64,000 nt of DNA from the human T2T-CHM13v2.0 reference genome, Homo sapiens (GCF_009914755.1 NC_060941.1), one strand, 5' to 3'. Counted from the stretch's first letter, positions 3,576 to 14,237 are shown. Notes: generated from the sequence alone by a model not told the origin. Numbers and translations are program-made.

Positions 3576-3635
3576 CAGGTCGGTCCTGAGCCACACCTCA
3601 ATGTCGTCCATGACAGATGGCTGCGCAACGGGGAT
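3576..3635 (-). CDS. TOM1L2: TOM1L2 exon 13 (60 nt, IPVAQPSVMDDIEVWLRTDL; myosin VI-binding IEVWL motif), symmetric phase 0-0
   Basis: catAG acceptor, GTGAGA donor; IEVWL corresponds to TOM1 IEQWL. Confidence 0.96.
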
Positions 3636-5267
3636 CTATGGAGGCGGCAAGCAGCGGGCCAGGCAGCCCCCACACAGCCAGCGAGGGGAGACAGAACACC
3701 GGAACAAAGGAAATCATCAACAGCAACCCCAAATAAAACCAAAATGTACACAGAGCAAAAAAACACAATTGGCACAGCACACAGGGGCAACACAGGGCAG
3801 CCACGTGTGAGATGGCAGGTGAGGAAAGCAATGAGGTGCAAATGATAAGAAGCAGGCTCCCGGCAGGGCCGGCGGTAAGGAAGGTGGCTGTACGCGTTCT
3901 TGAAATGGAGAACTTTTTGACTATGAGTGTCCACTCTCACATTGCGGGGCCTCTCAGCCCGGGGCTGCAAAACACCTTCTAACTTCAGGAAGGCGCTGCC
4001 ACGCAGGCTGATTTTGAACTCAGCCACTATGACAGTCCGCTGTCAAGCCCAACCCAGGGAAGGCCAAGTGACAGCCTGCCCAGAGCGGGGTACAGGTGCT
4101 CAGAGGGCAGGGCAGCACCAGCCCCGGGGGGATGCAGGGGGTCTGTTTGCTCCGCTGAAGAGATTTTGAAATGCGTCCTGGTGCATTTCTGAGTGGAGAG
4201 GGGAACTGGAGGAGGTGCGTGCTCCGCTGGGCTGGGTGTGGCCTGGTAGACAGAGGCAGGCACATTTTACCATCAACAGAAACACAGCAAAAACGAGGGC
4301 TCTGATGACAAAGGGGACTATGGGGCTTTAGTCTTCTTTGTGTCTCTTTAGGGGAAATTCATGAAGCAGCCCTGAAAGCAACAGCTCCCTTTAGTCTCGT
4401 CCTTTCTTCCCTGTGTTCAATGGCTGGCTGTGCTTCAGGAGTCAAAGAAACCAAGTTCAGCTGAGCACTGGGGCGCAGCAGCCAGAGCCAGGGAGGTGAC
4501 AGCTTCCAGGCATACTAAGGTGTACCACGGGGTTGCCTGAGCAGTCACCTTGCTTGGGCCCCTGTGCCAAGCACCTCAGGGACAGAGACTCTGAAAAATG
4601 CACATGGCTAAAAAGGTTTAAGTTGCCATCAAATATGACATGATAAGAAGCTCCCTAGAAGCCATGTTAATGGAATGTTGGCTCCCAGCCTAGAGAAATG
4701 AGGTGATGACCCTTAATCACCTCCTCACCTACCCTGGCTCTGGGAGGTACCCTTCCGGGGCTCACTTGCAAGACCCCTATTTCTATTACAAAAATGCCAG
4801 CTCTGTCTATAGCTGGCTTCACCCAATGCCATGATCTAGGGTAAGACTAAAGTAAAAATAAGCAGTAAAAGGAATGCATACCCCAGTGTCTATCAAATGT
4901 AAAAAATAACACGACCTTCACAAAGAAAAAGAACAAAGAACACATATCACCAGCAGTGATGTGACAACTCCAGTCCTGGGGGTTGACACCTGCTGCTGAT
5001 GGTGGGGGAGGGTGGTTTGGGGTCCCAGGTAGAGTCCAGCACTCTGAGCAGGTATCTACGATGCCACCAGAGCTCTTCACTCCCTCAGTGAGCTCAGCTG
5101 GCCCCTTGCTCTGAGGAATGTGCTCTGTGTCCTAACTTCGGACCCAATGTGGGAAGCCCACAAGAGCACTTTCAGAAAGGCCCAAGCCAGTCACTGATCA
5201 GATTAGGAAGAGTCTGTGTTGCTCATTATTTCTTTGACTTACTGGGGAGTTAAGAATGTTGAATTGA

Positions 5268-5574
5268 GCAGGGCACGGTGGCTCATGCCTGTAATCCCAG
5301 CACTTTGGGAGGCCGAGGCGGGCAGATCACCTGAGGTCAAGAGTTTGAGACCAGCCTGACCAACAGGGAGAAACCCAGTCTCTACTAAAAATACAAAATT
5401 AGTTGGGTGTGGTGGTATGCGCCTGTAGTCCCAGCTACTGGGGAGGCTGAGGCAGGAGAATCACTTGAACCTGGGAGGCAGAGGTTGCAGTGAGCCGAGA
5501 TCACGCCATTGCACTCCACCCTGGGCAACAAGACTGAAACTCTGTCTAAAAAAAAAAAAAAAAAAAAAAAAAAA
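5268..5574 (+). mobile_element. Full-length AluS with long A tail and 16-bp TSD
   Basis: Alu dimer consensus; TSD AAGAA(tg/ca)TTGAATTGA. Confidence 0.95.
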
Positions 5575-7167
5575 GAACATTGAATTGAAAAGGTATCAGG
5601 GAGTCTTATCACCCACACATGAAACCTAGGGACAGGAGGCATGTGGGTCCTCACTGGGGGGATGGACGCACAAATGACTGACAGATGTGTTAACAATGCC
5701 TAAGGCTGGCACTTCCTTGCCCTTGCCCATCAAAAGGCAGTAGGGTACACTGCTACTCTGTGCTTGCTGGCAGGCCTTCTGCCTTGAGACATTCCTGGAA
5801 CAGGACACACCAGTTATCATGCTCTCAATGACTGTAAGTCAGAATGTGTGGCCTCTGGGAGGACGCATGCCATGCTGAGTCCCCAAAACTGAAGCTTAGA
5901 AAGTCAGCAGCATCTCCAGAGAGAAAATAGTCCCACACTAGCGGTTAGAGTGTGCACCAGCCCTTTCTTTACACCTGACCAGCTTTTGTCCACTTAGCAG
6001 AAACAGACTAGATGTCCTGAGCTTTCCAATGTGTTGCAAAAGCTACAACAAAGACATTAAGGGGTCAGGGGCCTTAAACCTTCAGATTTTTCTTGTAATT
6101 GTTTTGTTGCTGCTAAAGAACAAATCCCTTGAGGCCTGGGGTCATACTTTAATTTTCTTCTTTGGGGATAAATCTTGAGAGCCAACATGCTCAGAAAATA
6201 AACAATGACACTTAAGAAATTCCTCACCTCCTCAAAAATAACTTCCCAAAAGCTGGCTCATGGGAACCCTTTTCTTCCATGTCCTAGATTTTTCCAAATA
6301 AGTAGTATGTTTATGGAATGGCATCCTCCAGACCAAGCCCTAGAGGGCACGCTGAGGAGAGTGCACTGGGTGGGGTCCATCTGGGCCCTCACACTCACTG
6401 GTGGCAGGACCTGGGGTGAGTCGCTCCTCTCTGGACCCCACTTTCTTCACCGGAGAGCTCCTGAGTTTCTTCTATCCTAAGAAGCCTTAGAGATTTGGGT
6501 GGAGAGGCAGGAGCAGGGGACAGAGGCCTGAGCAATGCTTGGCCTCAATTTCCTCATCTGTGAAATAAGGCGATTGCTAGATTGTATTTGGCTTTCAATT
6601 CTTATGACTCAGAAACCTTAACTTTCAGGTTGGTGCTTCTGTTTTCTAATTCAGAAACCCAGGGATGTCAGAAATTATGGAAACTGACTCATTACAATAT
6701 AGAAGCCACTTGGCCTCAGGGCGTGAACCATGGTGGAGCAGGGTGATGGTTAACAGTTAAGCTTATATAACGTAAGCTTAAATTGACTTTCTTGTGGCCA
6801 GACACAAAACCTTAGCTATCTAAACCTCTTGTCCTGGTAAATAAATGCCTTGAGTATTATAACAGGGCAAAGTTCCTTCTAATAATGTAGGTGCTATCAG
6901 ACTCAGACTAAACATGTACACTGCTTGGAAAATATGAACCAAAGAAACTGTGGGAGGCCGAGGACGCGCTCCTTGTCAGGCTGATGGGAGGGAAGTGGGG
7001 CCCTGGTTGGAGCAGGGGGCACTGCGCTGAGTCTTAGGGGACTCTGTTTCTTCCCTGCAGCTTTGGGCAAGACACCAGGCCCTTAGGAGGCCTCGGTATC
7101 CTCATCTGTCAGACTAGGGGCTGGCCCAGCAGATTCCTAAGAAGGCTGTTGGCTCTGATGTGTCATA

Positions 7168-12060: not shown

Positions 12061-12284
12061 TTCCCCTTTTTTATTGTGTTCTTAATTTCTCCCTTGGCCT
12101 CGTTTTCATTTCGAGGTCAGCATGGCTTGGGATGGGACAAGGTAACCTGAAATGCTGCAGGTGGGCAAGAATATGTGTAGACACACACAGACACACACAG
12201 CCCACATGCTCTGCTGCCCTGTATCGCTAAGGCTGTGGCCATGGCATTGCCCCATGGAGCAGCAAACATGAAAAGCAATCTGAT

Positions 12285-12573
12285 GGCCGGGCATGGTGGC
12301 TCACATCTGTAATCCCGGCACTTTGGGAGGCCAAGACGGGCGGAGTGCCTGAGGTCAGGAGTTCGAGACCGACCTGGCCAATATAGTGAAACCCTGTCTC
12401 TAGTAAAAACACAAAAATTAGCCGGCTGTGGTGGTGGGCACCTGTAATACCAGCTACTCAGGAGGCTGAGGCAGGACAATCGCTTGAACCTGGGAGAGGA
12501 AAGCTGCAGTGAGCCAAGATCGCGCCACTGCACCCCAACCTGGGCGCCAGAGCGAGACTCCATCTCAAAAAAA
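12285..12573 (+). mobile_element. AluS with TSD AAAGCAATCTG
   Basis: Alu consensus; flanking direct repeat. Confidence 0.94.
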
Positions 12574-14161
12574 GCAATCTGCCTACTGCTGGGTGGAAAA
12601 CCTGCTGGAGTCATCAGGACCTTTGAAAACAGGGAGCTAGTCCAAGCCACACACACAAAGGGTGAAGGGCGGGAAGTCACTCACATCTCCTGGGCTCAGA
12701 CCCAGGCCTGGGCGCTGATAATGGCAGGGGTGCAGCAGGACACACCCTGGCATGGACAAGGCAGGTCCTGGACCCAGAGTGAGGGACAAATGAGGTCAGC
12801 CTCATAGGGGCACAACAGGGCTGCTCCCAGTGCAGGCCAGGGTTGGCCACGAGGAGGGGATGTCCTCACCAGGCAGTATCCTGGTAGGCCCCTGGCTGGG
12901 CTCTCTAATGCCCACGCTGGGGCAGGTGGGAGGACATTCTAAGTAATGGGAGAATCAGAGCCATGAGCACTGCATTGATTTTGAGTGTCCCAGTCTCAGG
13001 GGTTCAGGTGGCACTGCCCACTCCTGTGGAAAGGCACGGCACTGAGGACCCAAGGCAGCCAGCTGGCTCTTCTGCGCCCTCTGGTGACCAGTGCAGAGGG
13101 ATGCATGCCCTCAGATCCACCAGGTGAAGACCAGCATGGATGAGGGAGTGAGTCCCTTCCCCCAAGAAGGAGCATCCCGTGGAAACCAGCACTGCTGCCT
13201 GCCTGGGCCCATTGGACAGGGGCTTCAGAAGGCTAAAAATTGGGACCCAGTAAGCAAACAGCCCTTTGCAAACCTTCCTGTCCAGTGGACAGATGATCAC
13301 TGCCCTCTCTAGCCCAGCTGGGGGACCCAGACAGGAGTTCCAGCTGTTGTCGGCAGCTATTCCAAGGACCCTCCTCCTCCCTGCCCCTGCAAACAGACGT
13401 GCATTCATACACATTTCTTTGTTAGGCAAAAACAAAAATCTCATGAGAAGCATTAAGACACACATTCTTTCCCCTTCAGTAATCCGAAATTGTACAGAAA
13501 GCATGGTTATGTTTGGGGAGGCCCAAACACATACCATTCCCTCCACTTCACTGTGCCGCACCCCCTCACCGCCACAGGACACCCTCCCAGCCACCACCCA
13601 ACTGCACCAGCTCTGTAAACAAACCCTGGCTCTCGAGTGCCTTCTAATGGGGTTGGTACTGCTCTGCTAGGCCAGTGACAAATGGCCATCAGAGATGTGG
13701 CTCGGGTCAGCATTGTCCTTCCTGGTGCAGGCCATGGTTTTATCAGAGCACTGACCACCCTGTGGCACTGTAACAGGTGACCATAGGAGACTTGTGCCTG
13801 GAGAACTTGGGGCCACTGTGGTAGGAACAGCAGGGGTTCTGGAAATGGACACTAATCCTAGGATTGGAACCCCAGCTTGCTGTCTGCTCTCTGGGTGTCT
13901 CAGCCTGTCTCCCACCTGCCTGGGACTGTTTTCTCTTGGGTGGATTGGGAAGCTCATGTGTGGCCTCATCTCACGGGGTGAGGTGAAGACTCAATGAGGC
14001 ACTACCTGGGTTCCACGGGGTGTCCCCCGTGGGTCTCTCCCCCAGGGTGTCCCTGCCCCCTGTGCAAGCCAGTTTCTGCTGAATTACCCAGCCAGCTTTG
14101 CCAAACCACCTGACTTTCCCTCCAGAAGACTCCAGGCAGAAAAACAGGGTTAAAGACCTAC

Positions 14162-14237
14162 CCCTTCTGAACTCTGTTTTCGATTGTCTAGTGCAGAAGC
14201 AAGTCCTCCGACAGCCTGAGGATCCTCATAGGTTACC
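14162..14237 (-). CDS. TOM1L2: TOM1L2 exon 12 (76 nt, VTYEDPQAVGGLASALDNRKQSSEG)
   Basis: tccAG acceptor, GTAGGT donor, phase 2-0. Confidence 0.97.

What the first reader, a model, noticed from the sequence alone, without database searches (positions are those of the whole stretch)
3576..14237. Intron 12 looks like a combinatorial splicing switch setting 0, 1 or 2 myosin VI-binding motifs on TOM1L2
Seen: between exon 12 (ends phase 0) and exon 14 (starts phase 0) lie four independent splice modules. These are a 4-nt GCAG unit (10692-10695), an 87-nt in-frame exon with IDSWL (10453-10539), a stop-containing exon (8605) and the 60-nt IEVWL exon 13. Three of them carry a distinct RBP-like motif cluster (CU-rich, ACUAAC, YGCY/YCAY). 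Established: TOM1/TOM1L2 bind the myosin VI cargo-binding domain through IEQWL/IEVWL to deliver endosomes to autophagosomes, and myosin VI is dimerised and activated by adaptors. Inference: splicing could make adaptors with no, one or two motor-binding motifs, or truncated VHS-GAT-clathrin-box forms, in a tissue-specific way. A two-motif isoform could bridge two myosin VI tails.
Basis: partly seen in the sequence, partly recalled or inferred. Interest (0 to 1): 0.85.

Follow-up and report, generated by a model that had tools for sequence, protein, structure and literature searches.

The report
TOM1L2 alternative exon duplicates BBSome-binding motif
Intron 12 of human TOM1L2 holds one real, anciently conserved alternative exon that adds a second copy of a short tryptophan-leucine motif, which current evidence links to the ciliary BBSome complex and not to myosin VI.

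Summary
All four "modules" exist as sequence, but only two have support as exons. The 87-nt exon (10453-10539) is RefSeq-annotated. Its core, EPID[S/K]WL[I/M]TQGM, is conserved in TOM1L2 models from frogs to primates. Of 163 stored full-length models, all selected for carrying it, 157 also include exon 13, so the two-motif isoform is already annotated.

The GCAG unit and the 8605 "stop exon" are in no RefSeq transcript listed by the hub. They look like ordinary pseudo-sites, and including either gives an early stop.

The central premise does not hold. The crystallographic myosin VI-binding motif (PDB 6J56) aligns to exons 14/15, which every in-frame splice combination keeps. Hu 2019 showed the IExWL motif is not directly involved. 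Shinde 2022 mapped EVWLR in exon 13 as the BBSome-binding motif, separable from MYO6 binding.

Best reading: the exon sets one or two BBSome-type WL motifs. BBSome binding by the second motif is inferred, not shown.

I found no paper on this exon or on TOM1L2 isoforms and the BBSome. I had no RNA-seq junction data and no cross-species DNA.

The parts
14162..14237 (-). TOM1L2 exon 12 (76 nt), ends in phase 0 at ...GAAGGG|gtaggt
   Evidence: hub annotation
10686..10722 (-). Composite splice-like site: tactaac, 15/16 pyrimidine tract, ccag|GCAG|gtaagg. It reads either as a 4-nt unit (10692-10695) or as an AG|GT recursive-type junction at 10692/10691. It is not annotated, and including the 4 nt frameshifts to a stop after 13 or 11 codons.
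10453..10539 (-). Annotated alternative cassette exon, 87 nt, with a weak GAG acceptor. It encodes TFLSSAQKRGRGGESDLEPIDSWLITQGM, giving a second IxxWL motif. Core residues are invariant from frogs to human.
   Evidence: hub annotation
10453..10518 (-). 66-nt version of the same exon, using the internal cag acceptor (KRGRGG...). This short form, or a 63-nt form, is what many non-primate gene models use. The first 21 nt of the 87-nt form are this acceptor's own pyrimidine tract.
8690..8725 (-). Cluster of four CTAAC (one is ACTAAC). Branch-point-like or QKI-like (label recalled). Statistically unique in the window; function unknown.
8401..8605 (-). Candidate pseudo-exon: strong acceptor at 8605, stop after 10 codons (CRNLESFQAS*), nearest good donor at 8400. 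In no RefSeq transcript and in none of 163 stored protein models.
3636..3695 (-). GC-rich 60 nt upstream of exon 13 with six YGCY
3576..3635 (-). Exon 13 (60 nt), IPVAQPSVMDDIEVWLRTDL. It carries EVWLR, the published BBSome-binding motif of TOM1L2 (residues 439-443 of the 507-aa isoform by my count; 388-392 in the paper's short isoform).
1506..1524 (-). Exon 14 part (approximately EGVTSE plus a split codon) of the region homologous to the Tom1 myosin VI-binding motif
   Evidence: boundary inferred
405..466 (-). Start of exon 15. The codons at 405-464 encode [20 protein letters not shown], which aligns to residues 8-27 of the Tom1 peptide in PDB 6J56 (the solved MYO6-binding motif); 465-466 complete the codon split with exon 14.

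Best explanation
Intron 12 of TOM1L2 contains one genuine, tetrapod-conserved alternative cassette exon, with 87-, 66- and 63-nt acceptor variants. When included, it places a second I-D-x-W-L motif exactly 21 residues upstream of the exon-13 I-E-V-W-L motif, in the disordered C-terminal tail. The exon-13 motif is the published BBSome-binding motif. The myosin VI-binding helix is encoded further downstream by exons 14/15 and is kept in every in-frame splice form.

The most likely function of this splice choice is to give TOM1L2 one or two BBSome-type WL motifs (in bird models, sometimes the new one alone). That would tune how strongly or in what geometry the adaptor latches ubiquitinated ciliary cargo onto the BBSome, without changing MYO6 binding.

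Shown here or in print: the exon, its conservation, the co-inclusion with exon 13, the position of the MYO6 motif, and the BBSome role of the exon-13 motif. Inferred: that the second WL motif binds the BBSome, and that inclusion is regulated by tissue. The GCAG unit and the 8605 acceptor are most likely unused pseudo-sites.
For: Exon and reading frame:
-.
- Annotation comes from the hub table plus human models P0017 (483 aa) and P0021 (isoform X1, 491 aa), which read ...SSEG|TFLSS...ITQGM|IPVAQ....

Conservation:
- One search returned 48 named TOM1L2 models among 55 hits. By the listing, 47 of the 48 have both motifs.
- One search found 1608 hits, of which the best 120 were listed. All 120 carry the exon. 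They include rodents, pika, elephant, armadillo, marsupials and birds.
- One search returned 42 hits, all with the core. They include turtles, lizards, gecko, tuatara and 3 frogs.
- Invariant columns are R382, P392, I393, D394, W396, L397, Q400, G401 and M402 in a 26-species alignment.
- W-to-W spacing is 21 in 154 of 157 models. One search printed 20 because of an index slip; positions 392 and 413 give 21.

Motif similarity: I[DE]xWL occurs only in these two exons in 113,063 six-frame residues.

Function of the motif class (Shinde 2022 preprint, section 8):
- VWLR is the minimal BBSome-binding motif.
- DIE to AAA gives a partial loss of binding.
- TOM1 has QWLS, and the authors propose the W/L dipeptide as the common determinant.
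- BBSome-motif mutations do not affect MYO6 binding.

MYO6 motif elsewhere.

Pseudo-sites: plus the hub table.

Low-confidence AF2 model: short helices fall on exactly the three motifs, at 392-399, 412-418 and 433-447 (mean pLDDT 47.5).
Against: - No binding data exist for the second motif. Its residue after WL is I or M, where TOM1L2 has R and TOM1 has S.
- Homology between the two exons is not statistically detectable. BLASTP gives no alignment. Profiles built from 17 exon-13 peptides and 70 alt-exon peptides do not find each other.
- The BBSome motif rests on one laboratory's mapping, and I read only the preprint. A later preprint questions whether TOM1L2 acts inside cilia at all (10.1101/2025.04.24.650332, passages).
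- Arden 2016 found that WL to AA in Tom1 abolishes MYO6 co-IP in cells. An indirect role of the motif in MYO6 association is therefore not excluded.
- I had no RNA-seq data, so the inclusion level and tissue pattern in human are unknown.
- All gene models seen are annotation. Many are automatic predictions, and my protein sets were selected for carrying the exon.
Confidence: 0.5

Rival explanations
1. One reading: IExWL-type motifs are myosin VI-binding motifs. Splicing would set 0, 1 or 2 of them, and a two-motif isoform could bridge two MYO6 tails.
For: Arden 2016 (PMC5074368, passages): Tom1 W423A/L424A abolishes MYO6 co-immunoprecipitation while Tollip binding stays. Two-motif isoforms exist in annotation.
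Against: - Hu 2019: the W423 NMR signal barely changes on titration with the MYO6 CBD. Tom1 392-437 shows no detectable binding. Tom1 437-463 alone binds as well as longer fragments (Kd 0.67 vs 0.76-2.1 uM), at 1:1 stoichiometry.
- The solved peptide aligns to exon 15. Neither WL exon matches it.
- Shinde 2022: mutation or deletion of the motif leaves MYO6 binding intact.
- All in-frame isoforms keep exactly one solved MYO6 motif.
Confidence: 0.1
2. The conserved second WL motif is functional but binds a partner other than the BBSome. Alternatively, it acts within TOM1L2, for example by competing with or masking the exon-13 motif or the neighbouring MYO6 helix.
For: - The flanks differ from the mapped motif: P-I-D-[S/K]-W-L-[I/M]-T-Q-G-M versus D-I-E-V-W-L-R-T-D-L. 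The invariant QGM has no counterpart in exon 13.
- The profiles do not cross-match.
Against: The shared I-[DE]-x-W-L core is otherwise absent from the window's six frames. The published minimal determinant is just xWLx.
Confidence: 0.3
3. The GCAG site is a functional recursive or decoy splice site. It would help remove the 3.5-kb upstream part of the intron first and influence the choice of the alternative exon 152 nt downstream.
For: - A consensus-grade branch point, pyrimidine tract and AG sit directly next to GTAAGG.
- It is the only such composite in the intron.
- The frame from 10695 to 10453 is open for 81 codons.
- An unnamed mammalian ORF translation (P0054) reads SSQVGRG where human reads FFQAGKG, at a similar distance from the exon. 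This is only a weak hint of conservation.
Against: - Four such composites occur in 128 kb, two of them on the non-transcribed strand. One in 10.5 kb is therefore unremarkable.
- The intron is short for recursive splicing (recalled).
- It is not in RefSeq (hub table).
- Using the first AG would leave 4 nt and a frameshift.
- Six other frames nearby also hold stop-to-stop ORFs of 68-127 codons.
Confidence: 0.1
4. The alternative exon is splicing or annotation noise without function.
For: I saw it only in predicted or automatic models, and no paper discusses it.
Against: The protein core is invariant from frogs to human while the N-terminal half of the same exon varies. The reading frame and the 21-residue spacing are preserved.
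Confidence: 0.05

Closest known systems
BBSome-binding motif of TOM1L2 (EVWLR; Shinde et al., bioRxiv 10.1101/2022.09.23.509287, section 8 read; the published Dev Cell version was not held)
   Same: The alternative exon carries I-D-S-W-L-I, which shares the I-[DE]-x-W-L core. It lies in the same disordered tail, 21 residues upstream. The W-L dipeptide is invariant in all species seen.
   Different: The residue after WL is I or M, not R (TOM1L2) or S (TOM1). It has its own invariant flanks (EP before, TQGM after). BBSome binding is untested.
Myosin VI-binding motif of Tom1 (residues 437-463, PDB 6J56; Hu et al. 2019, PMC6673701)
   Same: It is also a short helix-forming motif in the TOM1-family tail. 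TOM1L2 has it, as [13 protein letters not shown] in exons 14/15.
   Different: It is a different sequence class (F-x-x-F-L-x-x-R-A), encoded by different exons, and not affected by splicing in intron 12. Neither WL exon matches it.
Dab2 two-site binding that dimerises myosin VI (Yu et al. 2009; recalled, and cited in Hu 2019 passages)
   Different: Tom1 binds the MYO6 CBD 1:1 without dimerisation (passages). The duplicated motif here is not the MYO6 motif.
Tissue-regulated cassette exons that add or remove short linear motifs in disordered regions (general principle, recalled; e.g. the MYO6 large insert, Wollscheid 2016, cited in Hu 2019's reference list)
   Same: A short in-frame exon in a disordered tail, a conserved motif core with variable flanks, a weak acceptor and CU-rich upstream sequence.
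   Different: Tissue regulation of this exon has not been shown.
Vertebrate recursive splice sites with RS-exons (Sibley et al. 2015; recalled, not read here)
   Same: The GCAG site has a pyrimidine tract and AG next to GTAAG, with a cassette exon just downstream.
   Different: The intron is short at 10.5 kb. There are two competing AGs 4 nt apart. There is no junction evidence, and such sites occur at chance frequency in this window.

Membership tests
Conserved alternative cassette exon | AG/GT borders, length a multiple of 3, frame open in the phase of the flanking exons | tested here: met
   ctgag|...|gtgagg, 87 nt (66 nt from the inner cag). All in-frame combinations read through to the normal stop.
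Conserved alternative cassette exon | Present in some transcripts and absent from others | tested here: met
   The selected transcript lacks it, and the hub lists it as an exon of other transcripts. Human P0017 and P0021 contain it.
Conserved alternative cassette exon | Orthologous exon in distant species | tested here: met
   Placentals, marsupials, birds, reptiles and frogs. Fish were not seen, but the word-based search may miss them.
Conserved alternative cassette exon | Measured, regulated inclusion in RNA | not testable with these tools
   No RNA-seq access. Literature searches found nothing on this exon.
BBSome-binding motif (xWLx after D-I-E) | W-L dipeptide | tested here: met
   W396 and L397 are invariant in 26 of 26 aligned species, and WL is present in all 70 unique peptides, which were extracted with a pattern that requires WL.
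BBSome-binding motif (xWLx after D-I-E) | Preceding I-[D/E], which contributes partially (DIE to AAA) | tested here: met
   P-I-D is invariant in the 26-species alignment. Among the 70 unique peptides, one camel model reads P-L-D.
BBSome-binding motif (xWLx after D-I-E) | Residue after WL (R in TOM1L2, S in TOM1) | tested here: inconclusive
   I, M, L or R in the alternative exon. The paper itself treats only W/L as common.
BBSome-binding motif (xWLx after D-I-E) | Direct capture of BBSome, lost on WL(R) to AAA | not testable with these tools
   This is a bench assay. BBSome subunits could not be brought into a complex prediction under the tool's sequence rules.
Myosin VI-binding motif of the TOM1 family (6J56 type) | Alignable to Tom1 437-463 with F444, F447, L448, R451 and A452 | tested here: not met
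   The alternative exon and exon 13 give no match to 6J56. Exon 15 does match (E 0.0017, 20 of 20 columns aligned).
Myosin VI-binding motif of the TOM1 family (6J56 type) | Direct binding to the MYO6 CBD | not testable with these tools
   Published for the Tom1 homologue of exon 13: no binding of 392-437, and W423 unperturbed. Arden 2016 co-IP points the opposite way.
Recursive splice site (GCAG unit) | Pyrimidine tract and AG directly abutting GTAAG | tested here: met
   ccaggcag|gtaagg at 10692/10691, tract 14-15 of 16, donor 6 of 7.
Recursive splice site (GCAG unit) | Occurs more often than chance, or is conserved | tested here: not met
   Four comparable composites in 128 kb, two on the other strand. 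Conservation is not testable beyond one weak protein-level hint.
Recursive splice site (GCAG unit) | Junction or lariat reads | not testable with these tools
   No RNA data.
Poison or terminal exon (8605) | Annotated or seen in any transcript or protein model | tested here: not met
   Not in the hub's RefSeq exon list. CRNLES and ESFQAS are absent from the 163 stored models, but those were selected for another exon.
Poison or terminal exon (8605) | Splice signals stronger than the intron background | tested here: not met
   One of 17 equally strong acceptors in the intron.

The most novel reading that the evidence does not exclude
A cassette exon conserved across tetrapods (frogs to human) converts TOM1L2 from a one-site into a two-site BBSome adaptor. 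The two WL motifs sit at a fixed 21-residue spacing, just upstream of the unchanged myosin VI helix. Cells could then tune the retrieval of ubiquitinated GPCRs from cilia by splicing. In bird models the new motif can replace the old one, which suggests a switch of partner or affinity and not only of number.
Probability: 0.3. Interest if true: 0.65.

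Novelty: new member of a known kind. Interest (0 to 1): 0.4.

Why it matters
TOM1L2 is the proposed link between K63-ubiquitinated ciliary receptors and the BBSome, the complex defective in Bardet-Biedl syndrome. If a deeply conserved splice choice changes the number or type of BBSome-binding motifs, it gives a simple, testable handle on tissue-specific control of ciliary exit. 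It would also mean that experiments using only the canonical "long" or "short" cDNAs miss one natural form.

The result also corrects a motif assignment that is still easy to pick up from the older literature. The IExWL motif is not the solved myosin VI-binding site, so models of MYO6 recruitment or dimerisation should not be built on it.

Tried and rejected
- Exon-duplication origin: BLASTP of the two exon peptides gave no alignment. HMMs of each exon did not find the other in the window's six frames. Only the motif-level match stands, so I do not claim homology.
- Paralogue check: the alternative-exon peptide has a single match in the whole genome, itself. The equivalent 7-kb intron of TOM1 (L009) has no WL-type element besides TOM1's own exon-13 homologue, IEQWL.
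- Long ORF around the exon (141 codons, 10396-10821): rejected as a signal, because six other frames nearby have stop-to-stop ORFs of 68-127 codons.
- Rfam over the intron gave 0 matches. Tandem repeats showed nothing relevant except a 15-nt duplication at the exon's acceptor.
- Structure prediction of the two-motif isoform was low confidence (mean pLDDT 47.5). I use it only as a weak descriptor.
- Literature:
  - 'IEQWL' and 'IEVWL' appear as strings in 0 papers; Hu 2019 writes 'IEXWL'.
  - TOM1L2 with 'alternative splicing' and 'exon' gave 28 papers. Mbnl gave 12 and Ptbp gave 13. Judged from the listings, plus passages of PMC5381342, PMC8152425 and PMC12569832, none concerns this intron.
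  - Three BBSome/TOM1L2 follow-up papers contain no 'isoform', and the two also searched for 'splic' contain none.
- Earlier findings of this scan were not open.
- A complex prediction with BBSome or MYO6 was not attempted, because those sequences are not in the window or in my search results.
- Supplementary tables of splicing atlases, and the supplementary figures of Hu 2019 and Shinde 2022, were not seen and could bear on inclusion levels and on the alanine scan.

Full report
**What is in the sequence**

The window is human TOM1L2 on the minus strand. I confirmed these features:
- Exon 12 is 14162-14237.
- Exon 13 is 3576-3635 and encodes IPVAQPSVMDDIEVWLRTDL.
- The 87-nt exon is 10453-10539 and encodes TFLSSAQKRGRGGESDLEPIDSWLITQGM.
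- GCAG at 10692-10695 sits in ccag|GCAG|gtaagg, behind a tactaac and a pyrimidine tract.
- An acceptor at 8605 is followed by CRNLESFQAS and a stop.

Joining the annotated exons shows a single open frame. Exon 12 ends in phase 0 and exon 14 starts in phase 0.

**Which modules are more than chance**

I used simple rules for a strong site. An acceptor needs Y at -3, at least 13 of 16 pyrimidines, and no AG nearby. A donor needs at least 5 of 7 consensus positions.
- By these rules intron 12 has 17 strong acceptors, 37 strong donors and 24 acceptor-donor pairs of 20-300 nt. The 8605 acceptor is one of the 17.
- Acceptor-then-donor composites like GCAG occur 4 times in the 128 kb of both strands, two of them on the non-transcribed strand. 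One in a 10.5-kb intron is unremarkable.
- The hub's RefSeq table lists only 10453-10539 as an extra exon among 17 transcripts.
- Inclusion of GCAG frameshifts to a stop after 13 codons (with exon 13) or 11 codons (with the cassette). The 8605 exon stops after 10 codons.

The motif clusters are real as sequence:
- Four CTAAC within 50 nt at 8690-8725 is unique in the window, and 0 of 200 shuffles reach 4.
- Six YGCY occur before exon 13. That is the top 0.11% of windows, but 227 of 5000 shuffles of the same GC-rich 60 nt also reach 6.
- Seven CU motifs occur before the cassette, versus 0-3 at the other 14 acceptors.

Whether any RNA-binding protein uses these clusters is not shown.

**The cassette exon is real and old**

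- A search with the exon peptide, extended into the intron to reach the tool's minimum length, returned 55 hits. Of these, 48 are named TOM1L2 models from primates, carnivores, cetaceans, hippo, bats and moles. By the listing, 47 of the 48 carry both IDSWL and IE[V/L]WL.
- Human models P0017 (483 aa) and P0021 (isoform X1, 491 aa) read ...SSEG|TFLSS...ITQGM|IPVAQ....
- A region search on the tail found 1608 hits, of which the best 120 were listed. All 120 have the exon, as expected from the ranking. They add rodents, pika, horse, elephant, armadillo, marsupials and birds.
- A search from the bird version returned 42 hits, all with the core. They add turtles, lizards, a gecko, tuatara and three frogs.
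- In a 26-species alignment the invariant cassette columns are R382, P392, I393, D394, W396, L397, Q400, G401 and M402. The N-terminal half of the exon varies.
- Gene models use three acceptors, giving 29, 22 or 21 residues. The 22-residue form corresponds to the human inner cag at 10518.
- Of 163 stored full-length models, 157 have both motifs and 6 have the cassette motif only. Four of those six are clean bird models that join the cassette directly to exon 14. These sets were selected for containing the cassette, so they say nothing about how common it is.
- No fish sequence appeared. The word-based search may simply miss them.

**The motif is not the solved myosin VI site**

- The 27-residue Tom1 peptide of PDB 6J56 aligns over residues 8-27 to [20 protein letters not shown], the start of TOM1L2 exon 15. 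The two WL exons give no such match.
- I read sections 6-8 of Hu et al. 2019 (PMC6673701). They report:
  - The key Tom1 residues are F444, F447, L448, R451, A452 and others.
  - Tom1 437-463 binds the MYO6 CBD with Kd 0.67 uM at 1:1.
  - Tom1 392-437 shows no detectable binding.
  - The W423 side-chain signal barely changes on titration, "in contrast to a previous report".
- That earlier report is Arden et al. 2016 (PMC5074368; passages read). There, Tom1 W423A/L424A lost MYO6 in co-IP.
- I read section 8 and passages of Shinde et al. (bioRxiv 10.1101/2022.09.23.509287). They report:
  - 388-EVWLR-392 (short-isoform numbering) is the BBSome-binding motif, and VWLR is the minimal motif.
  - TOM1 has QWLS, and W/L is proposed as the common determinant.
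  - Mutating or deleting the motif leaves MYO6 binding intact.
- By my count this motif is residues 439-443 of the 507-aa isoform, inside exon 13.
- The genome confirms IEQWL/QWLS in TOM1's homologous exon.

All four in-frame splice combinations (exon 13 only, cassette plus exon 13, cassette only, neither) keep the exon 14/15 MYO6 motif.

**How it most likely works**

The cassette adds P-I-D-S-W-L-I-T-Q-G-M exactly 21 residues upstream of D-I-E-V-W-L-R. The spacing is 21 in 154 of 157 models. One search printed 20 through an index slip, and the positions give 21.

I[DE]xWL occurs nowhere else in 113,063 six-frame residues of the window. I therefore read the cassette as a second BBSome-type WL motif. 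Splicing would give TOM1L2 one or two such sites, or the alternative one alone in some bird models, while MYO6 binding is unchanged.

This last step is inference. BLASTP and profile searches do not detect similarity between the two exons beyond the motif. The residue after WL also differs. TOM1 has no counterpart exon. A low-confidence AF2 model (mean pLDDT 47.5) places short helices on the three motifs, at 392-399, 412-418 and 433-447.

**What is known and what is new**

The exon and the two-motif isoforms are in public annotation. I found no paper that discusses this exon or any link between TOM1L2 isoforms and the BBSome:
- Searches are.
- Passages of three follow-up papers contain no 'isoform', and the two also searched for 'splic' contain none.
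- The 2026 review PMC13386808 has 0 occurrences of 'splic'.
- The published Dev Cell version was not held.

The new element is the reading of the cassette as a second BBSome-type motif. It is a hypothesis.

**Verdict**

Two of the four modules are real exons.
Variable motif number is supported, but the myosin VI assignment is not.
- The best explanation has confidence 0.5.
- Interest is moderate at 0.4.

Noticed in passing
window 8690-8725 (-): Four CTAAC within 36 nt (CTAAC...CCTAACTAACAGCTAACC), 85-120 nt upstream of the 8605 acceptor. Unique in the 64 kb on both strands, and 0 of 200 shuffles reach four. Branch-point-like or QKI-type (label recalled). Function unknown.
   Followed up: partly
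window 3129-3575 (-): The frame stays open for 149 codons past the exon-13 donor into intron 13. Predicted isoforms in a langur (P0045, P0046) and at least one bird (Buteo P0141) read through this donor and lose the MYO6 motif; other bird/turtle models begin the same read-through (P0147) or rejoin the normal tail (P0153). No AATAAA or ATTAAA occurs in the first 1200 nt of the human intron.
   Followed up: partly
window 10532-10564: A 15-nt unit repeated 2.2 times (GACTTTTCT twice on the gene strand) spans the acceptor of the 87-nt exon. The first 21 nt of the 87-nt form are the pyrimidine tract of the inner acceptor at 10518.
   Followed up: partly
window 10396-10821 (-): A 141-codon stop-to-stop frame runs through the cassette and includes a chance WDSWL at about 10720-10735. 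Neighbouring frames have similar ORFs, so I treat it as chance.
   Followed up: yes
P0054 (unnamed mammalian ORF translation) versus window 10686-10700: Where human reads FFQAGKG across ccag|GCAG|gtaagg, P0054 reads SSQVGRG at a similar distance from the exon. This is compatible with a retained CAG|GT-type composite, but no DNA was available to check.
   Followed up: no
exon 12 last codon, window 14162-14164: The residue before the cassette is G in primates but V, M or A in many other species. In some close species pairs, G goes with the long exon form and V with the short form. I could not tell whether this is substitution or an alternative donor.
   Followed up: no
L009 (G000:C22:35796400-35804000): The equivalent intron of the paralogue TOM1 (about 7 kb) has no cassette-like WL element. 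Only TOM1's own exon-13 homologue, [20 protein letters not shown], is present.
   Followed up: yes
window 35391-35549 (exon 6): The commonest cassette-containing models (483 aa) also skip the 159-nt exon 6, while the 528-536-aa models keep both. Any coupling is unknown and may be an annotation artefact.
   Followed up: no
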